Shown here: piece after piece, positions 5,132-56,283 of the stretch
Position numbering within the stretch: position 1 is the first letter of the stretch
How the letters are laid out: every line of letters starts with the position of its first letter
Assembly: GCA_030688135.1 (NCBI GenBank)
Contig: JAUYIW010000067.1
Location: forward strand, 23,982-87,981
Length of the DNA stretch: 64,000 nt
Direction of reading: 5' to 3'
Source: Candidatus Uhrbacteria bacterium
GTDB taxonomy: Bacteria > Patescibacteriota > Patescibacteriia > UBA9934
Notes under the pieces: generated by a model
Databases searched by the model: none
Seen by the model: only the letters and a program-made list of their open reading frames with translations
Told to the model about the DNA's origin: nothing
Translations under genes and position numbers: made by a program

Positions 5132-5249
5132 AGTTTTTTGCTCTTTGCAAGGGAGTGAGCTTGATCCCGCATTCTATACTCAATGCACCACTCATCGGGA
5201 AAAACGCTCAATCGGCACAATCTCAGTCCAATACAATCCAAACACACAG

Positions 5250-5267
5250 TCCAACATCTAGCGTTGA
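5250..5267 (-). repeat. isolated copy (reverse orientation) of the 18-bp iteron TCAACGCTAGATGTTGGA at the edge of high-GC island 1
   Basis: The plus strand reads TCCAACATCTAGCGTTGA. This is the reverse complement of the motif found three times at 40243-40378. Confidence 0.6.
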
Positions 5268-5470
5268 CATATCAGCGCGGAGTACTCAAGAATTGCGATG
5301 CACACTCCACGCATCCTCCTGGCCGCCATAGCTTTAGCGACGGTGGCTGAACGCGCGAACTCCGGCAACATTGCAATCTGAGAGATTTCGGTGACACATA
5401 TCCTTAAACACGTATTCATGAACCTACTCTCCAGTGTTATTTTACCAAACTTTTTCTAAAATAAAAGAGC

Positions 5471-5506
5471 CCCTCGAAAACTTCAGTCAAAGACTTCAGT
5501 TTTCGA
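5471..5506. terminator. GC-rich hairpin (CCCCTCGAAAAC...GTTTTCGAGGGG)
   Basis: Perfect 12-bp inverted repeat near the 3' boundary of the minus-strand island-1 operon. Confidence 0.4.
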
Positions 5507-5570
5507 GGGGCAGGTCGCACTTTTTCAGATGTGGCGAGTCCGCTTCGCGGACGAAGAACCAAGGACCAAG

Positions 5571-5610
5571 CCTGCCTGCTGCCTGCCTGCCGGCAGGCAG
5601 GGCAGGCAGG
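5571..5610. repeat. perfect GC-rich palindrome built from CCTGCCTGCC units
   Basis: The sequence is CCTGCCTGCTGCCTGCCTGCCGGCAGGCAGGGCAGGCAGG. A related (CCTGCCTG)n-CCGGC tract recurs at 40045-40069 beside another high-GC island. Confidence 0.7.
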
Positions 5611-5685
5611 TCCAAAGATCTCCGAGCGCCAAGCTACCAAGCGTGCCCCGTACCGAGCTATGCTCTGGTGCGGGGTTCCAAGTGC

Positions 5686-6387
5686 CTACTCCCAGAGGAC
5701 AGACAACGACGTGAAATAGAACCAGTCGTCGAGGCGGCGGGCGTCCAGGCGCGCCCAGTCACTGTGACGGTCGACGCTCGGCGAGTCCATCCACGCATCG
5801 CAGTCGGGGACGTTCAGCTCGAGACCGCAGGCCAGAACCCACGGAACGGTATCGCCGTCGATCTGGCGAACCCAGTCGGGGTCTTGCGCGGCAGCGTAAA
5901 ATACGGCGAAGTGTGCCGAATCCTTGCCACGCACGGCCTTGGCGACCGTTCCGTCCTTGCGGTTGAAGTGCGCGCCGAGGTCCACGACCTCGATGCGCAC
6001 GCAATCGCGGTAGACGGGTACGATCGTGTTGCCACCCTCGTCCTGCAGGTATCGAACACGATTTTCGTCGATCCCACTGGCGTAGGCGAGATCCCACTGC
6101 CAGAAGTCCGTTCCGAAAGTGTCGCGCATGCGGTCGCGGGCGTAGGGCAGCAACTCATGCGCAAGACCGTCACCGAGATACGGCGACACTACGATGTTCA
6201 GCATGTTGTTGTTCTGGCTCTCTGCGTTGAACCGCGCAATGCGACTCTCGGCTTCCTTCTGCGCCGAGTCGATCATACCTCCCTTCACCCCCGGCCAGCT
6301 CCGTACCATTTCGAGCTTGTCCTTGAGTGGGCGGAATCGGCCGTGGATGAGGCGGAAAGCGTCGTGCTTGCGCATGGTGACGAGCAT
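5686..6387 (-). CDS. hypothetical protein (high-GC island 1)
   Basis: 233-aa ORF with balanced composition. The overlapping plus-strand 369-aa ORF is an Arg/Ala/Val-rich GC shadow. A hairpin (CCCCGTACC...GGTGCGGGG) follows the stop. No family recognised. Confidence 0.45.
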   Translation of the reverse strand: MLVTMRKHDAFRLIHGRFRPLKDKLEMVRSWPGVKGGMIDSAQKEAESRIARFNAESQNNNMLNIVVSPYLGDGLAHELLPYARDRMRDTFGTDFWQWDLAYASGIDENRVRYLQDEGGNTIVPVYRDCVRIEVVDLGAHFNRKDGTVAKAVRGKDSAHFAVFYAAAQDPDWVRQIDGDTVPWVLACGLELNVPDCDAWMDSPSVDRHSDWARLDARRLDDWFYFTSLSVLWE

Positions 6388-6390
6388 GGC

Positions 6391-6510
6391 CTACACCGCT
6401 TTCGGAGTTTGGCTGAGCTTCTTCGCATCTTCAGCCGTGAGCCCTGCCGCGTTAAGAACACGGTAGAGCTCGATTTCGGTTCCCTTGTCTATTTTGTAAA
6501 GGCTGGCCAT
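6391..6510 (-). CDS. small ORF (39 aa) immediately upstream of, and in frame with, the 233-aa ORF
   Basis: The sequence is MASLYKIDKGTEIELYRVLNAAGLTAEDAKKLSQTPKAV. A GGAGG motif lies 8 nt upstream. A TAG stop plus one codon separate it from the downstream ATG in the same frame. Confidence 0.25.
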   Translation of the reverse strand: MASLYKIDKGTEIELYRVLNAAGLTAEDAKKLSQTPKAV

Positions 6511-6669
6511 GTGGCTTACCCTCCTTGTTTCGCCGTCGGCTAACCTTACACCCTGAACTTACAGGAGTCTGACTGACCAGTTTGTTAAATACGGCTCTTT
6601 GAAGTCGATAAACTACAAAAAGCCATATTCAACATTAAAACTTGGTATTATTATATTAATGAACAAGGC

Positions 6670-6701
6670 ATGAATATAGCATTTATTAGCGATTTTGTCA
6701 A
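6670..6701 (-). promoter_or_regulatory. sigma70-like promoter (TTGACA-N17-TATATT) for the island-1 minus-strand operon
   Basis: The minus strand reads CTTGACAAAATCGCTAATAAATGCTATATTCATGCC. It shares the CTTGACAAA context with the other island promoters. Confidence 0.45.
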
Positions 6702-10832: not shown

Positions 10833-11073
10833 TAATTCACTGCACCATTTCTACGACGGCGTTTGTCGGGAGGAGAAATCTTTTTTTCTTGTCATCCTGA
10901 CCCTAAGCGAGCCGTAGGCGAGTCGAAGGGGAAGAATCTTTCACTGACAGAATGCGGACTTTTAAGAATGTAAGTTTATTGGGTCACCTTGCTATAAATG
11001 CATATTTGACTCAGTCGGCAGAAAAATACTGTACTCCGGCTACCAATTTTAGCTAATCTCAGCCAAGTGGACT

Positions 11074-11102
11074 TGACAAAAGTGGTTATTTATGATATAT
11101 TA
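11074..11102 (+). promoter_or_regulatory. near-consensus sigma70 promoter (left arm of the island-3 inverted repeat)
   Basis: CTTGACAAAAGTGGTTATTTATGATATATT has TTGACA, a 16-17-nt spacer and TATATT. It is a 29-nt inverted repeat of 12038-12066. Confidence 0.55.
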
Positions 11103-11166
11103 TTAAGTTCCAAAAATGGCCAAACCGTGGCCAGCAACCTTTCAACCCAAAAAAATGGAGGCCAAA

Positions 11167-11616
11167 ATGGCCACCGAAGACGCACACGAATTCATGTTGA
11201 ACCTGGTAGCAGATCAGGCAACCCGAATGGCTATCCTGGCTGCGGGCGGCACGATCGAGCCCAAGGAGTACTATGGAGCAGAGTACCACCACGTAGTGCT
11301 CCCGATGGAAAGCCTGCTCGAGGAGCGAATCCTATATGGAGATGGCCCCATGCGCTACGTCGGCCTCTGCAAGCTGATTGACGGCCAGTGGATCAAGGTC
11401 GCCCCCGCCAATCGCGAGTCGCTCGACCAAATCGGACAGATCGCCCTTTGCGATCTGGACGAAGAGATCCAGCTGTGGACCGATCGCCGTGAGCGACTGC
11501 GCAGAGCCGGAGTCCACATACGCCCAGACTGGGCGGTAGGACTCGCTCCGCATCCGGACTTCCCCGACCCCAGGGGCACAATCCCCGGAGTCAGGCCGGC
11601 TTGCCTCGAATCCTGA
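11167..11616 (+). CDS. hypothetical protein (high-GC island 3)
   Basis: The start was chosen at the ATG preceded by GGAGG (ATGGAGGCCAAAATG). About 150 aa with balanced composition. The longer 11116 start has no RBS. No family recognised. Confidence 0.4.
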   Translation: MATEDAHEFMLNLVADQATRMAILAAGGTIEPKEYYGAEYHHVVLPMESLLEERILYGDGPMRYVGLCKLIDGQWIKVAPANRESLDQIGQIALCDLDEEIQLWTDRRERLRRAGVHIRPDWAVGLAPHPDFPDPRGTIPGVRPACLES

Positions 11617-11665
11617 TCGGCACTGACCCCCGAGTGACGCAAGTCATTCGGGGGTCGTTCTTTTT
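11617..11665. terminator. bidirectional rho-independent terminator shared by convergent genes
   Basis: CCCCCGAGTGACGCAAGTCATTCGGGGG hairpin followed by TCGTTCTTTTTTAT. Confidence 0.6.
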
Positions 11666-11726
11666 TATATGAAAACCGCCCACACAAAAGTGCAGGCGGT
11701 GTCGGGCAGGATGCCCTAGTGCCGAA

Positions 11727-12017
11727 CTATCCGGCGAGTTGCTCGAGAATCCGCTCGAGCTCGGGTTCGGCCGTCAAGTTAGTCGAGTAGACCACACCGT
11801 CCTCAGTAAGTACGTAGTACCCAACGAGACCGGCGCGAACCGCTATCACCTTGTTGGCAATGGTCGACCAGCCTTGAGTGGTCTCGAGATGACCGCCATC
11901 CTGCCATCCCATGAGTCCACCCCCAACTGCGTAGCAGTCAAAAACGTGGCCGACGGATGCGATTGAGAAAACCGACGCCACAAATGCGGCAAAAAAGATC
12001 TGGATCCAGCTTCTCAT
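11727..12017 (-). CDS. small secreted hypothetical protein (high-GC island 3)
   Basis: 96 aa with an N-terminal signal peptide (MRSWIQIFFAAFVASVFSIASVG). An AAGGAG RBS precedes the ATG. It is convergent with the 11167 gene. Confidence 0.4.
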   Translation of the reverse strand: MRSWIQIFFAAFVASVFSIASVGHVFDCYAVGGGLMGWQDGGHLETTQGWSTIANKVIAVRAGLVGYYVLTEDGVVYSTNLTAEPELERILEQLAG

Positions 12018-12037
12018 TTTGTCTCCTTTTATGTTTC

Positions 12038-12066
12038 AAGACAAATGAATATATCACAAATAACCA
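12038..12066 (-). promoter_or_regulatory. near-consensus sigma70 promoter (right arm of the island-3 inverted repeat)
   Basis: The minus strand reads GTTGACAAAAGTGGTTATTTGTGATATATT followed by an AAGGAG RBS. Confidence 0.55.
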
Positions 12067-12499
12067 CTTTTGTCAACCTCAAATCCCTAATTCCTATGAC
12101 TAATAACCTACCGGACAACCACATTTTGTTGCCCTACACGTTTTATAATCTCTAAATCCCAAATATATGCTAAAATGCTCTAAACCTCTCCGTTTGTCGT
12201 TTAACCCCTCTTTAACCCCTTAGCAACCTGAATAACCTCCCTCAAATGCCCCAAAATTCAGACCTCAAATGCTGACTAGTAACGAGCGTTTAACTATACT
12301 TATCAACCAATAATTTACTCTTTGTCGCCTTTCTGAGCACGCCCGGATTTGGTCGGGCAGGAGGCAGGAATAGCATTTTTAACCCTTGCATAACTTTTAT
12401 TAAAACCTGAAATATAGAATACAAGGCGTCCAAAATGCCCTGACGTATACCTGACCTAATGCCGGGCAGGCGCAGGATGGAGAAGTAAACAATTAGAAT

Positions 12500-14930: not shown

Positions 14931-15037
14931 TCATAAGCGAACGCAATAATAAGTAAAATGCTCCCGACCAACGCGGGAGTATTGTTTTTTACATCCTCGA
15001 ATGTGTATTGATTTATATTGTGTCCACGCAACCCTAA

Positions 15038-15054
15038 GGGTTGCGGTTGCGAAT
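15038..15054. repeat. REP-like 17-nt palindrome GCAACCCTAAGGGTTGC (copy 1)
   Basis: Perfect palindrome. One of four copies flanking the RAYT gene. Confidence 0.75.
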
Positions 15055-15150
15055 CACAATGTTATCAACACTTGACTTACTTGCTAAAAAATGCTAAAAA
15101 TAAAGTACTCCCCATTACTGCGGGAGTTTTATTTATGCATTCTCGCATAT

Positions 15151-15167
15151 GCAACCCTAAGGGTTGC
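15151..15167. repeat. REP-like palindrome (copy 2)
   Basis: GCAACCCTAAGGGTTGC, directly abutting the ATG at 15168. Confidence 0.75.
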
Positions 15168-15188
15168 ATGCATACAACATACAAGAAT

Positions 15189-15848
15189 ATGCGAGAGCTT
15201 TCGTTCTACAATTCCGGTTTTTTCCACGTCTATAACCGAGGTGTTGATAAACGAGATACCTTTCTGAAAAAGATCGACTGGTTACGTTTTCTACAAATGA
15301 TGGTGTCCGTTAATGACTCAGGAAATAAACGAAAGCGATTTCCTTTGAGAGACAAAACGAACATAGTGCAGAGTGACGAACCTTACGTGCAAATACACTG
15401 CTATACGCTTATGCCAAATCATTTTCATATCTTGTTGGAGCAGCTTGTTGAAGATGGAATTTCAAAATTTATGGGTAGATTATCTAATGGCTATACAAAG
15501 TATTTCAATAAACGTAATAAACGCTCTGGTAGTCTATTCGAAAGTACATTTAAGGCAAGAGAAATCTGTGGTACTGCTGACCTTATTAATATATCCAGAT
15601 ATATTCATCTAAACCCACTTAGCGTGATTAGACCGAAATGGAAAATACAAGGAATCGTCAACTGGCACGATACATTGAATTTTTTAGAACAGTATCCATG
15701 GTCTAGCTACCAGTCATACATGGACATAAATAAGCAACCGTTTGTCGAATCAGATAGAATTATGAGCTGCTTTTCAGGTGCACAAGACTATAAGCAGTTT
15801 ATGCAAGAGTGGACCCCCACAGACCCCAGAGACTTTGTGCAACCCTAA
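15189..15848 (+). CDS. REP-associated tyrosine transposase (RAYT; IS200/IS605-like Y1 HUH transposase)
   Basis: The HUH motif is present (IHCYTLMPNHFHILLEQ). The N-terminal FHVYNRG block and a downstream Tyr region (YIHLNPL) are also present. The gene is flanked by four REP-like palindromes. The start could be at 15168; the annotated 15018 start would run through two palindromes. Confidence 0.7.
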   Translation: MRELSFYNSGFFHVYNRGVDKRDTFLKKIDWLRFLQMMVSVNDSGNKRKRFPLRDKTNIVQSDEPYVQIHCYTLMPNHFHILLEQLVEDGISKFMGRLSNGYTKYFNKRNKRSGSLFESTFKAREICGTADLINISRYIHLNPLSVIRPKWKIQGIVNWHDTLNFLEQYPWSSYQSYMDINKQPFVESDRIMSCFSGAQDYKQFMQEWTPTDPRDFVQP

Positions 15849-15855
15849 GGGTTGC
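15839..15855. repeat. REP-like palindrome (copy 3; overlaps the RAYT stop)
   Basis: GCAACCCTAAGGGTTGC. Confidence 0.75.
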
Positions 15856-15884
15856 ACAACAGAAAACCAATCTTTACTGGTTAG

Positions 15885-15901
15885 TCATAGTGCGTGCAAC
15901 C
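15885..15901. repeat. REP-like palindrome (copy 4; centre base flipped, i.e. opposite orientation)
   Basis: GCAACCCTTAGGGTTGC. Confidence 0.7.
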
Positions 15902-16127
15902 CTTAGGGTTGCACATGAATGTTGCACTTGCTTAACGATGAGTATATATTTGACAACTTGCACCTATATACTGCATTATGCCCCGTAGAGAAACTTCGAA
16001 GTTCTTCTACGGGGTATGTGGGCATTGTCTCAGAAGTCTGAAAGTCTAAAGTCTGAAAGTCCCCAGTCCCCCGACCACTCCTGTTCCATCGTCAACGATC
16101 AATAGTCAATAGTTTCGCAATCCGCTT

Positions 16128-18450: not shown

Positions 18451-18551
18451 TTACCCGGTGGTTTATAATTTGGAGTTAATAGACATTTAAAGTTGGTGAA
18501 TATCCCGTTTCTCTTCTAACTTTAGCGATAATCTGGAATACTTACGGTCGT

Positions 18552-19550
18552 ATGATCATAAGTGGACCAAAAAAGAGATGCTCGATGTGCTCTAAAACCA
18601 TGCAGCGATGGGGTCGACATCCGTCTGGTAAACAACGCTGGAGGTGTAAGAATTGTGAGAGTTCAAGTATCCGTAGTCGCAAAGACAACCGCCACAAAAA
18701 GCGGTTGTCTTTGTTTGTGCGCTGGCTCACCAGTAAGGCGGCGTTGGATGACTTGGTAACACAAGAAGGCATCACGTTGAGAACCATGACGAGATGGTTT
18801 ACTCCATTTTGGGATCACCCACCACAACCAGACATTCAGATAGGTGTGAGGGTTCTGGTTCTCGACGGAACGTCTGTGATGAAACGAGTGTGTATGCTCC
18901 TCATTGGAGGTGATGCAGACAACGGTCGACCTGTTTCATGGATGGATTGTCCTCGAGAGTGTTACGACTCCTGGGTCGTGTTCTTGAGAGATCTTTCTTG
19001 GAGAGGCATGATCCCTGAAGTGGTCGTCTGTGACGCACAGCGTGGCCTTTTAAAGGCTATTCGTGAAATATGGCCTCAAGTGAAGGTTCAGAGATGTCTG
19101 ATCCATATCGTGAGACAAGCCTGTACTTGGTTGACTAGAAACCCTAAGACCAAAGCTGGTCGAGAGCTTCTTGCCCTGGTTAAAGAACTGCCTCGTCTCC
19201 AGACCAAGCGACAGAAACGTCGGTGGGTCAGGAATTTTTGGAGATGGTATAGACGACACGAGGCGTTTCTCAAAGAACGTAGCTACAGCCCTTCCGGAAA
19301 GTGGTGGTATACCCACCGACGGTTACGAGGCACTCGCTCACTTCTCAAAAACGCCCTGCCTGACTTGTTTCGGTTTGTGACAGACCCATCCATACCAAAA
19401 ACCTCCAACCATGTGGAAGGAGGTTTAAATGCTCGACTTAAGGAACTATTCCGCTGTCATCGAGGCTTTTCACTTCAAAGGAAACTTATTCTTGCTGCCT
19501 GGTATCTAGCATTGAGACAGGGTCAAAAACCAACTTTAAATGTCTATTAG
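18552..19550 (+). CDS. transposase, IS1595-like (N-terminal Zn-ribbon plus DDE domain)
   Basis: N-terminal CxxC...CxxC zinc finger (CSMCSKT...RCKNCES). Size is 332 aa. The C-terminal motif TSNHVEGGLNARLKELFR resembles the N-x-x-E...K signature of IS1595/ISXO2-type DDE transposases. Confidence 0.6.
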   Translation: MIISGPKKRCSMCSKTMQRWGRHPSGKQRWRCKNCESSSIRSRKDNRHKKRLSLFVRWLTSKAALDDLVTQEGITLRTMTRWFTPFWDHPPQPDIQIGVRVLVLDGTSVMKRVCMLLIGGDADNGRPVSWMDCPRECYDSWVVFLRDLSWRGMIPEVVVCDAQRGLLKAIREIWPQVKVQRCLIHIVRQACTWLTRNPKTKAGRELLALVKELPRLQTKRQKRRWVRNFWRWYRRHEAFLKERSYSPSGKWWYTHRRLRGTRSLLKNALPDLFRFVTDPSIPKTSNHVEGGLNARLKELFRCHRGFSLQRKLILAAWYLALRQGQKPTLNVY

Positions 19551-19610
19551 CTCATAATTTGTAATAGTTAAGCTAATCGTTAACCGAAGACTCGCCGCCT
19601 TTCCGAGCAA

Positions 19611-21830: not shown

Positions 21831-22090
21831 AAGAACATTCAAAATGTTAAAGTCGATCAGATTAATTTTGACGATTAAAATAGAATCACCAGACCCGCCT
21901 TGTCATTACGAAGAGGCCGTTTTTCGTGACGAAGTAATCTATCTTTTCTGCCATCCTGAGGAGCTCGTAATGGATCATACGCAATTTGGGTGGAGAATGC
22001 ATAGAGGCCAAAGGTTAGCTCAACCGGTAAAAACAGCGAATCTCTTGCTTTCTACCATCTCGAACCCGACTTAACTTTCTGCTGTCGGGC

Positions 22091-22200
22091 GAGAGATCTT
22101 TCGAACCCCACCATCTCGAGGAGCTTGCAATCCACGACGAGAGATCTTTCGAACCCCACCATCTCGAGGAGCTTGCAATCCACGACGAGAGATCTTTCGC
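22091..22200. repeat. 48-bp tandem repeat, about 2.3 copies
   Basis: The unit GAGAGATCTTTCGAACCCCACCATCTCGAGGAGCTTGCAATCCACGAC is repeated head-to-tail. Confidence 0.8.
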
Positions 22201-22359: not shown

Positions 22360-22780
22360 GATCTCTCAGTCGCTTTGCTCCTTCGAGATGGTAAAGTGCG
22401 AAAAAATTGCTTTGTCGTAAACCGCGAGCTCCTAGTAATGCGTATTTTGTCTTTGCGAGGAATCTACTTATCGTGACGAAGCAAACTCTTCGGTTAGAGT
22501 GCAGAAAGATTGCTTCGGACCGAACTGCATAGTCCTCGCAATGACGAAAAAGATCTCTCAGTCGCTTCGCTCCTTCGAGATGGTAAAGTGCGAAAAAATT
22601 GCTTTGTCGTAAACCGCGAGCTCCTAGTAATGCGTATTTTGTCTTTGCGAGGAACCTGCTTATCGTGACGAAGCAAACTCTTTGGTTAGAGTTCAGAAAG
22701 ATTGCTTCGGACCGAACTGCATAGTCCTCGCAATGACGAAAAAGATCTCTCAGTCACTTTGCTCCTTCGAGATGGTGAGA
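22360..22780. repeat. 192-bp tandem repeat, about 2.2 copies
   Basis: Unit starts at 22360, 22552 and 22744 are near-identical (GATCTCTCAGTCGCTTTGCTCCTTCGAGATGGTAAAGTGCG...). They share the core GATCTCTCAGTCG..CTCCTTCGAGATGG with the MITE-like family C. Confidence 0.8.
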
Positions 22781-24883: not shown

Positions 24884-25010
24884 TGAATTACGAAACTCGA
24901 TGAGATTTGCGTGAACGGGCTGTCGATCCCGGTGAACCCTACTAAAACGTAGGGAGAACAGGGGCGACGGGCGCCCATGAACGCAAAGATCGCGAGTTTC
25001 GTAATTCAAG
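24884..25010. repeat. GC-rich ~130-bp structured element with terminal inverted repeats, family A copy 1
   Basis: CTGAATTACGAAACTCG...GCGTGAACGGGCTGTCGATCCCGGTGAACCCTACTAAAACGTAGGGAGAA..GGGGCGACGGGCGCCC.TGAACGCAAAGATCGCGAGTTTCGTAATTCAAG. Confidence 0.7.
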
Positions 25011-29227: not shown

Positions 29228-29304
<77 letters not shown>

Positions 29305-29349: not shown

Positions 29350-29497
29350 ATATCGAGACTGTTCTAATACTCTTTTTTCCATCTCGAAGGAGTCTTCGAC
29401 TGAGAGATCTTTCGTGCTTCCTAAGGATTTCTCATCGGCCGGTTCAACGGGCCTTTCCGAAATAGTGAGATTTTAAGTATTAGAACTGTCTCGATAT
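29350..29497 (+). repeat. MITE-like element, family C copy a (about 140 bp with terminal inverted repeats)
   Basis: It begins ATATCGAGACTGTTCTAATACT and ends AGTATTAGAACTGTCTCGATAT. The interior shares CCATCTCGAAGGAG..CGACTGAGAGATC with the tandem repeats at 22.1-22.8 kb. Confidence 0.7.
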
Positions 29498-30846: not shown

Positions 30847-30985
30847 CGAGACCGTTCTAATACTTAAAATCTCACCATTTCGAGGAGGTCTATTATATCG
30901 GCCGACGAGAAATCTTTAGAAGGCACGAAAGATCTCTCAGTCGAAGACTCTTTCGAGATGGGAAAAAGGAGTATTAGAACGGTCG
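30847..30985 (-). repeat. MITE-like element, family C copy b (inverted relative to copy a)
   Basis: CGAGACCGTTCTAATACT...AGTATTAGAACGGTCG. The interior is approximately the reverse complement of copy a. Confidence 0.7.
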
Positions 30986-34819: not shown

Positions 34820-34948
34820 CTTGAATTACGAAACTCGCGATCTTTGCGTGAACGGGCTGTCGATCCCCGTGAACCCTACTAAAACGTAGGGAGAATGGGG
34901 GCGACGGGCGCCCGTGAACGCAAAGATCGCGAGTTTCGTAATTCAAAA
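34820..34948. repeat. GC-rich structured element, family A copy 2 (has a perfect 29-bp outer stem)
   Basis: CTTGAATTACGAAACTCGCGATCTTTGCG ... CGCAAAGATCGCGAGTTTCGTAATTCAAG encloses the GTGAACGGGCTGTCGATCCCCGTGAACCCTACTAAAACGTAGGGAGAATGGGGGCGACGGGCGCCCGTGAA core. Confidence 0.7.
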
Positions 34949-35074
34949 GGATTAAGACCTTTGGCAATAGGCCATACAACCCACTCAGCCACTACACTAT
35001 GTCCTTCCCCTATCCGAATCTCGTCGCATACCAGACGCTCCCCCGCGTCGGTTTTTTTCTTTCTATTCTAAGTA

Positions 35075-35090
35075 CCCTTCGCACGAAAGG
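35075..35090. repeat. short palindromic repeat CCCTTCGCACGAAAGG(G) followed by TCCTAAGATT
   Basis: Copies occur at 35075, 35387 and (reverse complement) 56089. The first two bracket the ArsR-family gene. Confidence 0.6.
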
Positions 35091-35114
35091 TCCTAAGATT
35101 AGGAGATTTAAAAA

Positions 35115-35375
35115 TCAAATAATCGACAATAACATAGTGCTTACCGGATTCTGAGTACCCCGAACGCTATACACTACGCCAAAGCCGTTTTGCCAACGAT
35201 CAATAATCCCGGCATCATACAAAATACGTAAATGCTTTGAAGTTGAACGATATGACAAGCCAATTTCTCTAGCAATGTCATCCACAAAAATACATGGATT
35301 CATTTTTAAAATCCGCAATAACGAAAGTCTTCTCTGGCTTGCAAAGGCTTTTAAAATTTTCTCAAGTTGTTCCAT
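35115..35375 (-). CDS. ArsR-family winged-helix transcriptional regulator
   Basis: HTH region RRLSLLRILKMNPCIFVDDIAREIGLSYRSTSKHLRILYDAGII. 86 aa. Confidence 0.6.
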   Translation of the reverse strand: MEQLEKILKAFASQRRLSLLRILKMNPCIFVDDIAREIGLSYRSTSKHLRILYDAGIIDRWQNGFGVVYSVRGTQNPVSTMLLSII

Positions 35376-35386
35376 ATCTTTAGTAC

Positions 35387-35401
35387 CCTTCGCACGAAGG
35401 G
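35387..35401. repeat. short palindromic repeat CCCTTCGCACGAAGGG (copy 2)
   Basis: Same motif as at 35075 and 56089. Confidence 0.6.
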
Positions 35402-35633
35402 ACCGATAGAAATTTACAAAAATAAAACCCCATAAAAAACTTGGGGAGTCTTTTCACGTCCATTTAATTTTCGTTTACATTGAATACTTGATCAGAAACA
35501 ATAATCTAATCTACTTCTATGTTTACACAAAATATAACTCATGTCAAAGCCCTCTGGGGACAACTGTCAAAAAAGGTCGGCACATTGCCGACCTTTTATC
35601 AGGCAGGCGACCATAAAGGTCGCCCCTACACTG

Positions 35634-38074: not shown

Positions 38075-38203
38075 CTTGAATTACGAAACTCGATGAGATT
38101 TGCGTGAACGGGCTGTCGATCCCCGTGAACCCTACTAAAACGTAGGGAGAACGAGGGCGACGGGTGCCCGTGAACGCAAAGATCGCGAGTTTCGTAATTC
38201 AAG
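38075..38203. repeat. GC-rich structured element, family A copy 3
   Basis: CTTGAATTACGAAACTCGATGAGATTTGCGTGAACGGGCTGTCGATCCCCGTGAACCCTACTAAAACGTAGGGAGAACGAGGGCGACGGGTGCCCGTGAACGCAAAGATCGCGAGTTTCGTAATTCAAG. Confidence 0.7.
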
Positions 38204-39240: not shown

Positions 39241-39339
39241 AAATAATATTTGATTACCAAATCATACTATCACAAATTTGAACAAAGCGAAAATTGGCTA
39301 AAACTAGCCTAGTTATAATGGTCTAAATGGTCTAATCGT

Positions 39340-39368
39340 TTGACAGAACGGCAATTTTGTTCTATAGT
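39340..39368 (+). promoter_or_regulatory. near-consensus sigma70 promoter (TTGACA-N17-TATAGT) for the island-4 gene
   Basis: TTGACAGAACGGCAATTTTGTTCTATAGT. It is followed by a ~150-nt GC-rich structured leader (39369-39519) containing the hairpin GCCCTTTTGAAAAAGGGC just before the RBS. Confidence 0.5.
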
Positions 39369-39519
39369 ATGCCGTTAGTCTGTGCTTTCAGCACCCCACT
39401 TTCTTTTTGCCTATTTGGCTTAAATAAGCAGAAAGAAGGCGGGAACAAGCACTCATTTTCCTCTTTGCCGACGGTCGGTGAGGAGTGAGCCCTTTTGAAA
39501 AAGGGCGGGAGATAAACAG

Positions 39520-39996
39520 ATGAGTAAGTTCGAAGGTTCCCGTGCCATGGCGCACCTCCTGGATCAGCTCGGCGACGAGCGCTTCGCAGCTCTGATCGAC
39601 TCGGCCAACACCGGGAAGGTCAAGGAGCTCTGCGATGCCCTCGTGAGGAATACACCCTCTCTCCCGACGGAGATGACGATCAATGGCCGCACCTACGATA
39701 TCCTCGGCTTCCTGCGGGAAGACGAGACGTCGGTGCTCAACCACGAGATGATCACGCGCGCCAAGAACATGAACGCCCACCTCGGGGAGGACGACTGCGA
39801 GTACCTGCTGGACAACCAGCAGGATATCCCCGTGAGTTTGCGGCGCAAGGTCGTGTTCGTCTTCACCTACTGGCGTGGCTCCGGCGACTCCGAGGATGTC
39901 TGCTACGTCTTTTGGGACCACGTCGTCTGGTTTCGGAGCTGGGACAGGGGCTTCAGCATCTGGAGTGGCGACTATCGGGTGCTCCGTCGCAAGTAG
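39520..39996 (+). CDS. hypothetical protein (high-GC island 4)
   Basis: 158 aa with balanced composition. An RBS-like GGGAGATAAACAG precedes the ATG. The antisense 177-aa ORF is a GC shadow. No family recognised. Confidence 0.45.
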   Translation: MSKFEGSRAMAHLLDQLGDERFAALIDSANTGKVKELCDALVRNTPSLPTEMTINGRTYDILGFLREDETSVLNHEMITRAKNMNAHLGEDDCEYLLDNQQDIPVSLRRKVVFVFTYWRGSGDSEDVCYVFWDHVVWFRSWDRGFSIWSGDYRVLRRK

Positions 39997-40004
39997 TCCC
40001 TCGG

Positions 40005-40069
40005 GTCCTTGTGACCTTTGCCCTTGGCATTGGTCACAAGGACACCTGCCTGCCTGCCTGCCTGCCGGC
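40005..40069. repeat. hairpin GTCCTTGTGACC...GGTCACAAGGAC followed by a (CCTGCCTG)n-CCGGC tract
   Basis: Same GC-rich CCTGCCTGCC motif as the palindrome at 5571-5610. Confidence 0.6.
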
Positions 40070-40124
40070 TTGATTCCTTCCCGCCGTCAGGCGGGTCGGT
40101 ACCGCCGAGGAGGCTACCCTCATA

Positions 40125-40170
40125 CACCCCGCACTGGATTCGTCCACGCGGGGTGTTTTATTTTATGTTA
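40125..40170 (+). terminator. rho-independent terminator closing high-GC island 4
   Basis: CACCCCGCACTGGATTCGTCCACGCGGGGTG followed by TTTTATTTTAT. Confidence 0.6.
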
Positions 40171-40242
40171 CAATTCCATTCGGAAAGTAAATGTTTCAGT
40201 CACGGCTACAGTTTTGGGCGATTGAACCTACACACACCTTGT

Positions 40243-40378
40243 CAACGCTAGATGTTGGACTGTGCGTGCACAAAATACCAACACCTGGGGTTGGTAATGA
40301 TTAACAACGCTAGATGTTGGACTTTCTCATATGAGCCATATATTAAAGGATCCGGCTCTGTCAACGCTAGATGTTGGA
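40243..40378 (+). repeat. three direct copies of the 18-bp iteron-like motif (T/A)CAACGCTAGATGTTGGA, spaced about 58-61 bp
   Basis: Copies at 40243-40260, 40304-40322 and 40361-40378. The motif is a near-palindrome CAAC-N7-GTTG around a central CTAG. A fourth copy lies at 5250-5267. Confidence 0.7.
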
Positions 40379-40485
40379 GACTCGTATAATCGAAATGGAA
40401 CAGACGTTATAATGCAATTGCATTAACACATAACAATCTGGGGGAATTTTTTTAAAAAAATATCTGAATAGCTACCTCATTAAGA

Positions 40486-40516
40486 CCAAATCTAAAAGCC
40501 GGCTCACTTGCCGGCT
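40486..40516. terminator. bidirectional terminator downstream of map
   Basis: AAAAGCCGGCTCACTTGCCGGCTTTT, a perfect hairpin flanked by A/T runs. Confidence 0.6.
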
Positions 40517-40525
40517 TTTAGATTG

Positions 40526-41308
40526 TTAAATTTTTATCTCAGGTTGTAGCGTTAATATCTCCGGTCCGTCTTCGCCGATAACAATCGTTACTTCATAGTG
40601 AGCCGCGTCTGATCCGTCAACGGTAGTAATTGTCCAGCCATCTTCCAATGTTTCAATATCGTCTGATCCGGTTGTAATCATTGGCTCAATAGCCAAACAC
40701 ATTCCAATTTTAATTTCCTGATCTGGGAATTTTTTTGTTCTGTAATTTGGAATATGAGGTTTTTCATGCACCTCATGCCCAACGCCATGCCCTACTAAGG
40801 CACGCACAATGCCATATTTTTTCAAATCGATTACATCTTCTACCGCCGCACCAATATCCGATATCATATTTCCAACTACTGCAGCATCGACGCCCACATA
40901 AAGCGCATCACGAGTTAAACGCATAAGTTCAAGCTTTTCTTTAGATACATTTCCAACCGGAACTGTAACAGCCATATCTACACACATATCTTCGTACCAA
41001 AGGCCAATATCTAGACCAACAATGTCTCCCTCTTCCAATGTTATATCTCGGCCACCAACACCATGAACAATCTCATTATTTCTTGAAATACAAAGAGTTG
41101 ATGGAAAAGGAGTACCTCCACCACTTCCAAATCCCTTAAATGAAGGCTTACCTCCACCCTCTAGAATCGCCTGCTCGGCAATAGAATCAAGTTCACGCAT
41201 AGTAACGCCAGGCTTTGTAGCATCAACCGCCGCTTGCAATGCACGTGACAGCAATGCGCCACCTTTGCGCATACTTTCGATTTCTTTAATTGTTTTTATA
41301 AGTGCCAT
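40526..41308 (-). CDS. map: methionine aminopeptidase, type I
   Basis: Pita-bread fold with metal ligands (D..D..H..E..E in the conserved order). 260 aa. Confidence 0.9.
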   Translation of the reverse strand: MALIKTIKEIESMRKGGALLSRALQAAVDATKPGVTMRELDSIAEQAILEGGGKPSFKGFGSGGGTPFPSTLCISRNNEIVHGVGGRDITLEEGDIVGLDIGLWYEDMCVDMAVTVPVGNVSKEKLELMRLTRDALYVGVDAAVVGNMISDIGAAVEDVIDLKKYGIVRALVGHGVGHEVHEKPHIPNYRTKKFPDQEIKIGMCLAIEPMITTGSDDIETLEDGWTITTVDGSDAAHYEVTIVIGEDGPEILTLQPEIKI

Positions 41309-41367
41309 ATGATTTTGCTAGTTACCTACTGATGTACTAATTTTTACTGATATACAGATCGAGTAGC

Positions 41368-46913: not shown

Positions 46914-47231
46914 CTATTCTAAATCTTCAAGACCTTTTTTAGTCTTAAGTATTCTAACTTTTGTCTTTTTTGAATCGCGCTCAATAAACTTATAAGCAAC
47001 ACGACCTTCGCCAGCCTTTCCAATAACTCGTACATTTGAAGCGTCTATTGGTGCAAAGTAATCAATACGTTGTCCAGCTGTGTTACCTCGTCGTTTTAGA
47101 TGTTTTACAGCCTTATTGATTTCTTCAATAACAACTTTATTGAGATTTGGAAAAACCTGCAGGACCTTTCCGGTCTTGCCTTTATCTTTACCTGCGGTAA
47201 CTCTTACATTGTCGCCAGTTTTAATCTTCAT
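46914..47231 (-). CDS. rplX: 50S ribosomal protein L24
   Basis: KIKTGDNVRVTAGKDKGKTGKV KOW motif. Confidence 0.9.
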   Translation of the reverse strand: MKIKTGDNVRVTAGKDKGKTGKVLQVFPNLNKVVIEEINKAVKHLKRRGNTAGQRIDYFAPIDASNVRVIGKAGEGRVAYKFIERDSKKTKVRILKTKKGLEDLE

Positions 47232-47240
47232 ATTATATTA

Positions 47241-47343
47241 CCAGGTTCCTACTGATGTACTGATAGCTACAGATTTACTAATTGGATTTAGCCGCTTGTC
47301 GATCTGTATATCTGTAATAATCTGTACATTAGTAGGGTCCTTG
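47241..47343. repeat. ~100-bp palindromic spacer element, family D copy 1 (L14/L24 gap)
   Basis: Terminal inverted repeats CCAGGTTCCTACTGATGTAC ... GTACATTAGTAGGGTCCTTG. Inner core CGATCTGTATATCTGTA. Confidence 0.65.
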
Positions 47344-47354
47344 TTTTTCGCATG

Positions 47355-50245: not shown

Positions 50246-50257
50246 AGGTTTCGATTA

Positions 50258-50339
50258 CCAGGCTCCTACTAATGTACCAATTGTCACTGATGTACAGATC
50301 CGTAAATCTATATTAATCAGTATATTAGTAGGAACCTGG
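50258..50339. repeat. palindromic spacer element, family D copy 2 (L2/S19 gap)
   Basis: CCAGGCTCCTACTAATGTAC ... TATATTAGTAGGAACCTGG. Confidence 0.65.
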
Positions 50340-50352
50340 TAGTTTTTTTGTG

Positions 50353-51189: not shown

Positions 51190-51207
51190 ATTTATTGATA
51201 TACTAGT

Positions 51208-51299
51208 ACCCTACAGAAGTACTGATTGTGACCGATTTATTTATAATCCGACTTCAGATCTGTGAATCAGTACCAATCAGTACGTCAGTAGGTTCCCTG
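51208..51299. repeat. palindromic spacer element, family D copy 3 (L23/L2 gap)
   Basis: ACCCTACAGAAGTACTGATTG ... CAATCAGTACGTCAGTAGGTTCCCTG. Confidence 0.6.
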
Positions 51300-55702: not shown

Positions 55703-56088
55703 AGTTTTAGACAAACATTGATTATGTCGCCATCTTAACGCATCTGTAGAAGGAGTCAAGAGGTGGTAGATTGGCAATGGTAAATTAGCTTTTGGCCACT
55801 TGCCATTAGCTCGTGCAACCCATCCATATATCTGTACTGCAACCTGCCCTGAGCGAAACGATCCTGAGCCTGTTGAAGGAGAGTGAAGTCGAAGGGTATA
55901 TCCGTAACGAAATAAAAAAACTCCAGACTTTGTCAATCTCATGGGGGCGACCTTTAGGTCTCCCGCAAGCGGACGGCATACTGCCACAGGTGACTCGGGC
56001 AGTCCGCCTTCAATGAACAGTGGCGGAAATATCGTCCATACACTTAACTACCATTCACATGTCCTAGAGACGTGAAATCTCTTTAGGA

Positions 56089-56104
56089 CCTTTCGTGCGA
56101 AGGG
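56089..56104. repeat. short palindromic repeat CCTTTCGTGCGAAGGG plus TCCTAAGATT (copy 3)
   Basis: Same family as 35075 and 35387. Confidence 0.6.
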
Positions 56105-56283
56105 TCCTAAGATTGGTAGACGCCTTACTTTTGAGGATGAATGAGAGCAGTAACAAAAAGGCGAGCCTTTCGACCCGCCTTTAAATCTCTATTTAACCCC
56201 CTAACTTCCCTCAAACTCTCTCACATTGCTCGCGTTGGTCGATCTGTAGTTCCGTATAGTCTGTAGGTCTGTAACGATGTACC

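What the first reader, a model, noticed from the sequence alone, without database searches (positions are those of the whole stretch)
40243..40378. 18-bp iteron TCAACGCTAGATGTTGGA: three direct copies next to one high-GC island and a fourth at the edge of another
Three copies lie about 60 bp apart in the gap between the island-4 terminator and the map terminator. A fourth copy in reverse orientation sits at 5250-5267 on the border of island 1.

The motif is a near-palindrome, CAAC-N7-GTTG around CTAG, which is typical of a dimeric DNA-binding protein site. It does not fit CRISPR: the copies are too short, too few and irregularly spaced. Association with the island borders suggests a recombination or attachment site, a partition or replication iteron of an integrated element, or a shared repressor operator.
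Basis: seen in the sequence. Interest (0 to 1): 0.55.

Follow-up and report, generated by a model that had tools for sequence, protein, structure and literature searches.

The report
REP-like repeat at broken retroelement ends
The 18-base repeat is real, but it is probably not a replication iteron: it is a short hairpin-type repeat found only in this bacterium, and it sits exactly where two mutagenic retroelements (DGRs) lost their reverse-transcriptase halves.

Summary
TCAACGCTAGATGTTGGA occurs four times: 40242, 40304 (one mismatch) and 40361 on +, and 5250 on -. None of 100 shuffles gave this.

The window is from a Candidatus Uhrbacteria MAG of about 41% GC. High-GC islands 1 and 4 are not integrated elements with att sites. 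Each is the variable-protein (target) gene of a diversity-generating retroelement (DGR). In other genomes their homologues sit beside a template repeat (TR), bAvd and a reverse transcriptase, with adenine-specific TR/VR mismatches.

This window has no TR, Avd or RT. At both loci, nucleotide homology to intact DGRs runs through the gene, hairpin, terminator and a downstream promoter, then stops 3-14 nt before the repeat.

The repeat core CAAC-N7-GTTG is shared with four palindromes that flank a RAYT-like HUH transposase gene at 15.2-15.8 kb, and with a degenerate inverted copy inside the array.

Best reading (confidence about 0.4): a REP-like, transposase- or recombinase-recognised repeat that colonised two DGR loci and probably helped truncate them.

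Replication or partition iteron, CRISPR and parS are not supported. A transposon-end relic, a recombinase core site and an operator remain open.

The motif is absent from relatives and public collections beyond chance. Interest is modest.

The parts
40240..40261 (+). Repeat copy 1 (TGTCAACGCTAGATGTTGGACT; 18-mer core 40242-40259). It begins 11-14 nt after homology to intact DGR loci is lost.
40302..40323 (+). Repeat copy 2 (TAACAACGCTAGATGTTGGACT; 17-nt core identical to the others, TGT replaced by TAA).
40359..40380 (+). Repeat copy 3 (TGTCAACGCTAGATGTTGGAGA). A TATAAT box follows 5 nt downstream, at 40384-40389.
5242..5269 (-). Repeat copy 4 (28 nt, 27/28 identical to copy 1; 18-mer core 5250-5267). 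It begins 3-6 nt after homology to the L053 DGR leader is lost. The stop codon of a 53-aa leader ORF lies inside it.
   Evidence: (I16)
40275..40296 (-). Degenerate, more palindromic inverted copy in spacer 1 (TACCAACCCCAGGTGTTGGTAT). Its 15-nt core matches both the repeat and the RAYT-flanking palindromes at 12/15 (counted by eye on alignment A5).
39340..40226 (+). Island 4, an orphan DGR variable-protein module. Parts: promoter 39340-39368; ORF 39520-39996 (158 aa); VR 39871-39994; post-VR hairpin 40007-40041; terminator 40126-40164; extended -10 TGTTACAAT 40166-40174; first ~45 nt of the DGR-RNA leader. It is 79% nt-identical to L044 2414-3275.
5275..6701 (-). Island 1, a second orphan DGR variable-protein module of another family. 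Parts: promoter 6701-6673; ORF 6510-5686 interrupted by an in-frame TAG at 6393-6391; GC palindrome ~5612-5570; terminator 5512-5465; extended -10 TGGTAAAAT 5447-5439; leader 5433-5275, 81-86% identical to the leader upstream of the TR in L053.
40381..40488 (+). Tail of the array segment: two TATAAT boxes (40384, 40408), a perfect 16-nt palindrome TAATGCAATTGCATTA (40410-40425) and an A/T palindrome (40446-40461). No gene follows before the map terminator.
15027..15913 (+). RAYT-like Y1/HUH transposase gene (likely 15190-15848). It is flanked by four palindromes [T/C]GCAACCCT[A/T]AGGGTTGC[A/G] at 15027, 15150, 15838 and 15895, which carry the same CAAC-N7-GTTG core as the repeat.
   Evidence: (D12, I18, I25)

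Best explanation
The 18-mer is the core of a 20-28-nt repeat specific to this lineage. I read it as a REP-like hairpin repeat (CAAC-N7-GTTG) that a DNA-processing enzyme recognises. The most likely enzyme is the RAYT-like HUH (Y1) transposase encoded at 15.2-15.8 kb, or a paralogue.

Copies have settled in the non-coding DNA just downstream of two DGR variable-protein genes. Breakage or recombination at or between such copies removed or displaced the template repeat, avd and reverse-transcriptase parts. One copy was left at each junction.

What is shown:
- the repeat itself and its statistics;
- islands 1 and 4 are DGR target modules without a TR, Avd or RT in 64 kb;
- both junctions with lost homology lie 3-14 nt from the TGT end of the repeat, in the same orientation relative to the target gene;
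- a RAYT-like gene flanked by related palindromes is present.

What is inferred:
- that the transposase recognises this repeat;
- that the repeat caused the truncations rather than arriving afterwards;
- that the copies are transcribed from the leftover DGR-leader promoters and may also act as REP-type 3' RNA elements.
For: 1. The repeat is real and its core is perfectly conserved, while the spacers are unrelated.
2. Homologues of the island-4 protein are DGR targets followed by TR, bAvd and RT. In L044 and L050, 15/16 and 19/19 TR/VR mismatches fall at TR adenines.
3. Homologues of the island-1 protein are DGR targets in L053 and L051. In L053, 18/24 mismatches are at adenines.
4. Window 39341-40226 aligns at 79% and 76% nt identity to L044 and L050, and the alignment stops 11-14 nt before copy 1. 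Window 5433-5275 aligns at 81-86% to the L053 leader and stops 3-6 nt before copy 4.
5. The window has no TR, RT, Avd or integrase.
6. Relatives have map directly followed by DUF7282, so the whole 1.28-kb segment is an insert.
7. CAAC-N7-GTTG occurs 12 times against 0.96 expected. The hits are the four copies, the degenerate inverted copy, the four RAYT-flanking palindromes and three singles. It is the top hairpin motif in the window that is not low-complexity, and it is at chance level in 127 kb from relatives.
8. An ungapped alignment shows invariant CAAC, loop position 2 C and GTTG, with similar flanks.
9. The transposase hits Pfam Y1_Tnp at 1.3e-7 and NCBIfam REP_Tyr_transpos at 5.7e-11. 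The HUH and Tyr motifs are visible by eye in the sequence.
10. All copies are extragenic and lie downstream of genes, one set between convergent terminators, as is typical for REPs.
11. An independent Logan assembly of the same organism breaks at 40254 and 40273. Its other contig end falls in a known 127-nt repeat. This fits a further copy of 40225-40302 elsewhere in the genome.
Against: - Only four copies in two loci are visible, and REP families usually have dozens. The rest of the genome could not be read.
- The repeat is a weak palindrome: a 4-bp stem plus 2 bp across a bulge, with DNA hairpin energy about -2 kcal/mol. The RAYT-flanking elements are perfect 19-nt palindromes.
- Overall identity between the two families is only about 13/20, which alone would not be significant in a genome-wide scan. 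The argument rests on the shared stem and spacing pattern. My rough estimate of this arising by chance is about 0.003.
- The RAYT score is below NCBIfam's cut-off (42.5 bits against 80).
- Three direct copies at about 60-nt spacing are not the usual inverted-doublet (REPIN/BIME) layout.
- The distance from the homology break to the hairpin differs between the two loci.
- Nothing shows that the repeat caused the deletions.
Confidence: 0.4

Rival explanations
1. Relic of a DDE transposon or IS end of the Tn7, Mu, Tn402 or IS21 type. The copies would be transposase-binding sites: copy 1 and copy 4 the terminal sites beginning 5'-TGT, copies 2 and 3 internal sites about 60 bp apart. Insertion or transposon-mediated adjacent deletion truncated both DGRs, and the element itself later decayed.
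For: - Three of the four copies start with TGT, and the sequence 5' of it is unrelated in every copy.
- The two junction copies share 27/28 nt, while the internal copies share only 19-20 nt.
- Three spaced direct sites followed by promoter-like boxes resemble a complex transposon left end (the comparison with Tn7L, Mu and IS21 ends is from my own knowledge).
- The DGR remnants lie on the outer side of the TGT end at both loci.
Against: - No transposase gene is adjacent, and there is no inverted partner end.
- The 'interior' side holds essential genes (map and the ribosomal operon; lepB, hisS).
- The only DDE transposase in the window (IS256/Mutator-like, 18552-19550) has unrelated terminal repeats (I14, 58).
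- Binding sites within one transposon end are usually similar rather than 100% identical.
- There are no matches in the plasmid or phage collections.
Confidence: 0.15
2. Core site of a site-specific (tyrosine) recombinase: 6-7-bp inverted arms GTCAAC / GTTGGAC around a 7-bp overlap GCTAGAT. TR-avd-RT cassettes flanked by such sites were excised or moved, leaving single sites or short site arrays.
For: - The 6-7-7 geometry fits core-type sites (comparison from my own knowledge).
- Perfect identity of the central 17 nt in all copies is what strand exchange requires.
- The position is exactly at the boundary of the missing cassette at both loci.
- Some intact DGR loci of the island-4 family carry a Phage_integrase gene just beyond the RT (L047-L049).
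- One intact DGR cassette (L044) is bounded by ~75-nt inverted repeats, which hints that these cassettes move.
Against: - tblastn with the L047 integrase finds nothing in the window, and the Pfam scans of window ORFs show no recombinase.
- No such site is seen in any intact relative.
- Three direct sites about 60 bp apart would delete one another.
- The Logan contig ends do not coincide with the junctions predicted for recombination between copies (my reasoning).
Confidence: 0.12
3. Operator for a transcription factor (for example the small winged-helix protein at 35115-35375), or an RNA element. It would control or cap the orphaned DGR-leader promoters, which still fire into the array and toward lepB.
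For: - Both loci keep an extended -10 promoter just upstream (TGTTACAAT 40166-74; TGGTAAAAT 5447-39), and the repeat is in the sense orientation at both.
- Copy 3 abuts a TATAAT box.
- On the opposite strand the repeat ends in TTGACA, giving promoter-like matches at copy 4 and, weakly and by eye, at copy 3.
- The putative 348-nt transcript folds better than shuffles, z = -3.5.
Against: - Promoter geometry differs at each copy.
- Most of the fold energy comes from the map terminator.
- There is no conservation in relatives.
- Rfam gives no match.
- This reading does not explain why the copies coincide with the homology break points.
Confidence: 0.12
4. Replication or partition site (plasmid-type iterons or a parS-like centromere) of an integrated element.
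For: - Direct repeats of iteron-like length lie next to an A/T-rich palindrome.
- ParA and ParB genes are in the window, and no canonical parS was found.
Against: - Spacing is 57-62 bp, not about 22 bp.
- There is no rep gene.
- The segment is a 1.28-kb insert made of a DGR remnant, not a replicon.
- The motif is unlike the conserved 16-bp parS palindrome.
Confidence: 0.04
5. Functionless filler. The 28-nt at copy 4 and the array copies arose as templated patches during repair of the deletions and have no activity of their own.
For: - The copy number is very small.
- The motif is absent from every other genome searched beyond chance or coding hits.
Against: - Four copies share a perfectly conserved 17-nt core amid unrelated spacers.
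- The core is shared with the RAYT-flanking palindromes.
- The assembly breaks suggest further copies.
Confidence: 0.12

Closest known systems
REP / REPIN elements and their RAYT (REP-associated tyrosine transposase) genes. Literature located (PMC3116915, PMC3337134, PMC3733652) but not read; the properties cited here are from my own knowledge.
   Same: - Short, extragenic, hairpin-capable repeats located after gene 3' ends and between convergent genes.
- A single RAYT-like HUH gene in the same genome is flanked by palindromes with the same CAAC-N7-GTTG core.
- One direct-inverted pair (copy 1 plus the spacer-1 copy) resembles a doublet.
   Different: - Very few visible copies.
- The palindrome is weak, and no GTAG or CGTC tag is present.
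- Mainly direct copies about 60 nt apart.
- The sequence is only about 65% identical to the RAYT-flanking palindromes.
- The RAYT is below the curated score.
Diversity-generating retroelements (Bordetella phage BPP-1 type; abundant in CPR bacteria). Relevant papers were listed (PMC8144416, PMC6602519) but not read.
   Same: - Islands 1 and 4 encode proteins homologous to bona fide DGR targets.
- They retain the VR, the post-VR hairpin, the terminator and the start of the TR-RNA leader.
   Different: - No TR, Avd or RT in 64 kb.
- One target carries a premature stop.
- The 18-mer is not a known DGR component and is absent from the intact loci examined.
Complex transposon ends with several transposase-binding sites (Tn7L, Mu attL, Tn402/Tn5053, IS21). 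Comparison from my own knowledge.
   Same: - 5'-TGT terminus.
- Three ~20-bp direct sites spread over about 140 bp.
- The terminal sites are the most alike.
   Different: - No transposase and no opposite end.
- Sites are identical rather than merely similar.
- Essential genes lie on the 'inside'.
Plasmid replication iterons
   Same: Direct repeats of 18-22 bp.
   Different: Spacing is wrong, there is no rep gene and no origin context, and the setting is a chromosomal DGR remnant.

Membership tests
REP/RAYT repeat family | Short (20-40 nt) imperfect palindrome able to form a hairpin | tested here: inconclusive
   CAAC/GTTG 4-bp stem plus 2 bp across a bulge, with a 7-nt loop. DNA hairpin energy is about -2 kcal/mol; 25 and 2 of 200 shuffles fold as well.
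REP/RAYT repeat family | Extragenic location, typically after gene 3' ends | tested here: met
   All four copies are intergenic, downstream of terminators and in the sense orientation to the upstream gene.
REP/RAYT repeat family | A RAYT gene in the genome flanked by repeats of the same family | tested here: inconclusive
   A RAYT-like gene lies at 15190-15848 (Pfam Y1_Tnp 1.3e-7; NCBIfam REP_Tyr_transpos 5.7e-11, but 42.5 bits against a cut-off of 80). It is flanked by four palindromes that share the CAAC-N7-GTTG core but match only about 11/15 in the core.
REP/RAYT repeat family | High copy number dispersed over the genome | not testable with these tools
   Only 64 kb of the genome is available: 4 copies plus 1 degenerate copy at two loci. 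The source genome is absent from the searchable collections. Assembly breaks hint at further copies.
Plasmid/phage replication iterons | Tandem direct repeats at about 22-bp, helically phased spacing | tested here: not met
   Spacing is 62 and 57 bp with unrelated spacers.
Plasmid/phage replication iterons | Adjacent gene for an initiator (Rep) protein | tested here: not met
   Neighbours are a DGR target gene, map, DUF7282 and ruvX. None of the 29 window ORFs scanned against Pfam hit a Rep family.
CRISPR array | Repeats of 23 nt or more at regular spacing, cas genes, spacers matching mobile elements | tested here: not met
   The conserved repeat is 17-22 nt with 3 copies. None of the 29 ORFs scanned against Pfam hit a Cas family. 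Exact-match scans with a 22-23-nt core of each spacer found nothing in IMG/VR.
parS centromere | 16-bp palindrome TGTTNCACGTGAAACA bound by ParB | tested here: not met
   The motif is unlike parS. The only window match to parS at up to 3 mismatches is at chance level.
Integration att sites flanking an island | Direct repeat copies at both island borders | tested here: not met
   No copy (up to 7/22 mismatches) at the promoter-side border of island 1 or island 4.
DGR (applies to islands 1 and 4, not to the repeat) | Variable protein homologous to proteins that are DGR targets | tested here: met
   82 and 20 homologues were found. Contexts with VR/TR pairs, bAvd and RVT_1 occur in L044-L049 and L053; L051 has a bAvd gene next to the target but no RVT_1 hit on record. 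Adenine bias is shown. The protein model has pLDDT 89 with weak C-type-lectin-like matches.
DGR (applies to islands 1 and 4, not to the repeat) | Cognate TR and reverse transcriptase (with Avd) present | tested here: not met
   There is no second copy of either VR in the window, and no tblastn hit for RT or Avd. The remaining ~30 kb of the contig and the rest of the genome could not be examined.
Complex DDE-transposon end | Inverted partner end and a transposase gene between the ends | tested here: not met
   None in the window. The distant copy faces outward relative to the array, and essential genes lie on the inner sides.

The most novel reading that the evidence does not exclude
The repeat is a programmed recombination or processing site that lets this small genome detach, park or re-dock a TR-avd-RT cassette next to different variable-protein genes. 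That would switch targeted hypermutation on or off, or share one reverse transcriptase among several targets. The enzyme could be a domesticated RAYT-type HUH protein.
Probability: 0.05. Interest if true: 0.75.

Novelty: new member of a known kind. Interest (0 to 1): 0.33.

Why it matters
The main value is reinterpretation. The conspicuous high-GC islands in this candidate-phyla-radiation genome are DGR variable-protein modules, and two of them are orphaned. The repeat marks precisely where their mutagenic machinery was cut away.

If the repeat is a RAYT/REP-type element, it would show REP-like repeats reshaping retroelement loci in an ultra-small genome. It would also give a concrete case of how DGRs decay or are disarmed.

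The practical gain is small unless the complete genome shows that the copies link the targets to a displaced RT cassette.

Tried and rejected
**Exact-motif scans of public collections.** I scanned 185,579 species-representative genomes, JGI metagenomes and IMG/VR. They returned only single copies in unrelated settings. Several hits recur with identical flanks across contigs, which looks like conserved coding sequence (by eye, not translated). The source genome is not in these collections, so a genome-wide count was impossible.

**CRISPR.** Rejected. The repeats are too short and too few, no cas genes are present, and the spacers have no IMG/VR hits.

**parS.** Rejected.

**Integron attC/attI.** GTTGGAC fits the degenerate core GTTRRRY. 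However, the sites are only 20 nt, no IntI is present, and the match is expected by chance.

**dif/Xer site.** The shared 28 nt has no dif-like symmetry.

**Promoter reading.** The TTGACA on the reverse strand has a usable -10 at only one or two of the four copies.

**Coding reading.** The 45-aa ORF across the array and the 'CQR*' endings are inconsistent between copies.

**Hidden TR.** Sensitive blastn found no second copy of either VR in the window.

**RNA family.** Rfam gave nothing.

**Similarity of the array to plasmids or phages.** None.

**Single-inversion model.** I tried to derive the two outward-facing junctions from one ancestral element by a single inversion. This does not work on paper.

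**L039 insert.** A relative has an insert at the same map/DUF7282 junction, but it is not a recognisable remnant of either DGR target family.

**Viral-contig search for relatives of the island-4 protein.** It found none.

Full report
**1. The observation**

The 18-mer TCAACGCTAGATGTTGGA is present at 40242-40259, 40304-40321 (one mismatch) and 40361-40378 on the + strand, and at 5250-5267 on the - strand. A search allowing three mismatches expects 0.03 matches, and no shuffle reached four.

Start-to-start spacing is 62 and 57 nt. The 17-nt core is identical in all four copies. Copy 1 and the distant copy 4 share 27 of 28 nt (I16). The sequences between copies are unrelated.

A 22-mer scan allowing 7 mismatches adds only a degenerate, more palindromic inverted copy inside spacer 1, at 40275-40296. 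The observation therefore stands, with the start coordinate off by one base.

**2. The setting**

The window is about 41% GC. It carries a ribosomal-protein operon ending in secY-adk-map on the - strand. The proteins identify a Candidatus Uhrbacteria MAG.

In relatives whose map protein is 72-75% identical, map is followed directly by DUF7282-ruvX-recO-aspS-scpA-scpB. The 1,285 nt between map and DUF7282 in the window (39241-40525) are therefore an insert. That insert holds both island 4 and the repeat array.

**3. What the high-GC islands are**

*Island 4.* It has a near-consensus promoter (39340-39368), a 158-aa ORF (39520-39996), a hairpin, and a terminator. The protein has no Pfam hit but has 82 homologues.

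In L044-L049 the homologue is followed by a repeat of its own 3' end, a bAvd gene and an RVT_1 reverse transcriptase. The TR/VR mismatches fall on TR adenines in 15 of 16 cases in L044 and 19 of 19 in L050. This is the signature of a diversity-generating retroelement.

An AlphaFold model (pLDDT 89) gives weak C-type-lectin-like matches. That agrees with the usual fold of DGR variable proteins, a comparison I make from my own knowledge.

*Island 1.* It encodes a different family with 20 homologues. In L053 two copies of this gene flank RT, bAvd and a TR, and 18 of 24 mismatches are at adenines. In the window the gene is interrupted by an in-frame TAG at 6393-6391.

*What is missing.* The window contains no second copy of either VR and no RT, Avd or integrase by tblastn. 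Both loci are therefore orphaned DGR targets, at least within these 64 kb.

*Islands 2 and 3.* These are other small high-GC genes, and they carry no copy of the repeat.

**4. Where the repeat sits relative to the DGR anatomy**

*Island 4.* Window 39341-40226 aligns at 79% nucleotide identity to L044 2414-3275 and at 76% to L050. The alignment covers the promoter, the gene, the post-VR hairpin, the terminator, an extended -10 box (window TGTTACAAT, relatives TGATATAAT) and about 45 nt beyond it.

In the relatives the sequence then continues for about 180 nt into the TR. In the window homology ends at 40226-40229, and copy 1 starts at 40240.

*Island 1.* The stretch after its terminator (5433-5275, - strand), including an extended -10 TGGTAAAAT, aligns at 81-86% to the leader between target gene and TR in L053. 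It stops at 5275-5272, and copy 4 starts at 5269.

*Summary.* Two unrelated DGR leaders are each joined, in the same orientation, to the TGT end of the same 28-mer. Everything from there to the RT is missing. I estimate roughly 0.002 for two random insertions landing this close to both break points.

**5. A related motif in the same window**

CAAC-N7-GTTG occurs 12 times against 0.96 expected:
- the four copies of the repeat;
- the spacer-1 copy;
- three singles, two of which lie inside long ORFs;
- the four palindromes TGCAACCCTAAGGGTTGCA at 15027, 15150, 15838 and 15895.

Those palindromes flank a 15.2-15.8-kb gene. It hits Pfam Y1_Tnp (1.3e-7) and NCBIfam REP_Tyr_transpos (5.7e-11, but below the curated cut-off). 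HUH and tyrosine motifs are visible in the sequence.

An ungapped alignment keeps CAAC, the second loop base and GTTG invariant, and the flanks are similar: TGTG-CAAC...GTTG-CAC against TGT-CAAC...GTTG-GAC. The spacer-1 copy matches both families at 12 of 15 core positions.

This is the strongest hairpin motif in the window that is not low-complexity. It is at chance level in 127 kb from relatives.

**6. Interpretation**

The best-supported reading is a REP-like repeat recognised by an HUH (RAYT-type) transposase or a similar enzyme. It occupies extragenic DNA behind two DGR targets. It is implicated in the loss of their TR-avd-RT parts, for example by recombination between copies or by processing at a copy.

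This explains several things:
- the extragenic, post-terminator position;
- the identical cores amid unrelated spacers;
- the inverted degenerate partner;
- the shared core with the RAYT-flanking palindromes;
- the coincidence with both break points.

An independent Logan assembly of the same organism ends at 40254 on one side and resumes at 40273. The other end of that contig falls in a known 127-nt repeat. With k = 31, this pattern is what a second copy of 40225-40302 elsewhere would produce. A local variant haplotype would also explain it.

The weaknesses are these:
- the copy number is small;
- the palindrome is weak;
- the layout is mainly direct copies;
- the transposase score is sub-threshold;
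- nothing directly shows that the repeat caused the truncation.

I put this reading at about 0.4.

**7. Rivals**

- *Decayed complex transposon end.* It would have a TGT terminus, with terminal sites more alike than internal ones. It fits the junction geometry but lacks a transposase and a partner end.
- *Tyrosine-recombinase core site.* The 6-7-7 geometry and identical overlap fit cassette excision. Some intact relatives have an integrase beside the RT, and one intact DGR is bounded by ~75-nt inverted repeats. However, no recombinase is in the window, and no such site is in any intact locus.
- *Operator or RNA element.* It would act on the leftover leader promoters. This is possible but not specifically supported.
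- *Replication or partition iterons, CRISPR, parS, and att duplications.* These fail defining tests.

**8. Conservation and novelty**

The motif was not found beyond chance or coding hits in species-representative genomes, JGI metagenomes or IMG/VR. It was not found in 127 kb of related loci, nor in the plasmid or phage collections. No close relative of this genome is available.

Even so, the four copies are clearly not chance.

The finding is best filed as a new, lineage-specific member of the family of short extragenic mobile repeats, seen in an informative place. Interest is modest, about 0.33. The one reading that would be exciting is a programmed site for detaching or docking the DGR cassette. 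It is unsupported, and I give it about 5%.

Noticed in passing
window 39340-40165 and 5465-6701; L044 2400-3150: DGR variable-protein genes, together with their leaders and 3' hairpins, are 60-65% GC in genomes of about 40% GC, both here and in a relative. The adjacent avd and RT genes in L044 are only about 44-47% GC. The cause of this local GC excess is unexplained.
   Followed up: partly
window 6510-5686 (-), stop at 6393-6391: The island-1 DGR target gene carries an in-frame TAG after codon 39 relative to its 262-275-aa homologues. An ATG follows two codons later. It is either a pseudogene or a split gene.
   Followed up: yes
L044 2127-2200 and 5096-5170: An intact 3-kb DGR cassette (target, TR, avd, RT) in another Uhrbacteria-like MAG is bracketed by ~75-nt imperfect terminal inverted repeats. 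An IS110-family transposase gene lies just outside. This suggests the whole DGR is or was a mobile unit.
   Followed up: partly
L039 6784-7473 versus window 39241-40525: A relative has a different 690-nt, 60% GC insert at the same map/DUF7282 junction. It is driven by a promoter homologous to the island-4 promoter (TTGACAGAACG...TATATT) but is otherwise unrelated. The junction may be an insertion hot spot.
   Followed up: partly
window 15018-15920: A RAYT-like HUH/Y1 transposase gene is flanked by two 19-nt perfect palindromes on each side, which is the classical REP-RAYT arrangement. I do not know of a described case in a CPR genome and did not check the literature.
   Followed up: partly
window 11045-12076: Island 3 consists of two convergent small high-GC genes (166 and 96 aa, no Pfam hit) with back-to-back terminators. 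They are driven by 29-nt promoters that are 97% identical in inverted orientation. The island-1 promoter is related (57 nt, 75%).
   Followed up: no
window 24884-25010, 34821-34947, 38077-38203: A 127-nt MITE-like repeat with 37-42-nt internal inverted arms is present in three intergenic sites. One copy coincides with the end of Logan contig L006.
   Followed up: no
window 22090-22185 and 22360-22776: Tandem repeats in an ORF-poor stretch: two perfect 48-nt units, and about two and a fraction 192-nt units at 97% identity. Their nature is unknown.
   Followed up: no
window 29372-29493 and 30847-30968: 122-nt inverted repeats (86% complementary), 1.35 kb apart, enclose tRNA-Leu and one tRNA-Met gene plus a 188-aa ORF with no Pfam hit. 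A second tRNA-Met gene (29228-29304) lies just outside the left arm.
   Followed up: no
window 5419-5258 (-); L053 10724-10551 (-): The DGR leader between target gene and TR contains a conserved small ORF (53 aa here, 57 aa in L053) with an in-frame 30-nt indel and several synonymous differences. It may be a real small protein. In the window its last codons and stop lie inside the repeat.
   Followed up: partly
window 41306-41367, 47229-47344, 50246-50341, 51191-51285: A family of 40-50-nt repeats (CCTACTGATGTACTGAT... and its inverse) occupies several intergenic gaps inside the ribosomal-protein operon.
   Followed up: no
window 18467-19559: An IS256/Mutator-family transposase gene (332 aa) is bounded by 31-nt inverted repeats. 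The repeats are unrelated to the 18-mer.
   Followed up: partly
window 35071-35417: A small ArsR/MarR-type winged-helix gene (86 aa) is inserted between aspS and scpA relative to relatives. It is flanked by copies of a hairpin repeat that also occurs at 56085-56120.
   Followed up: no
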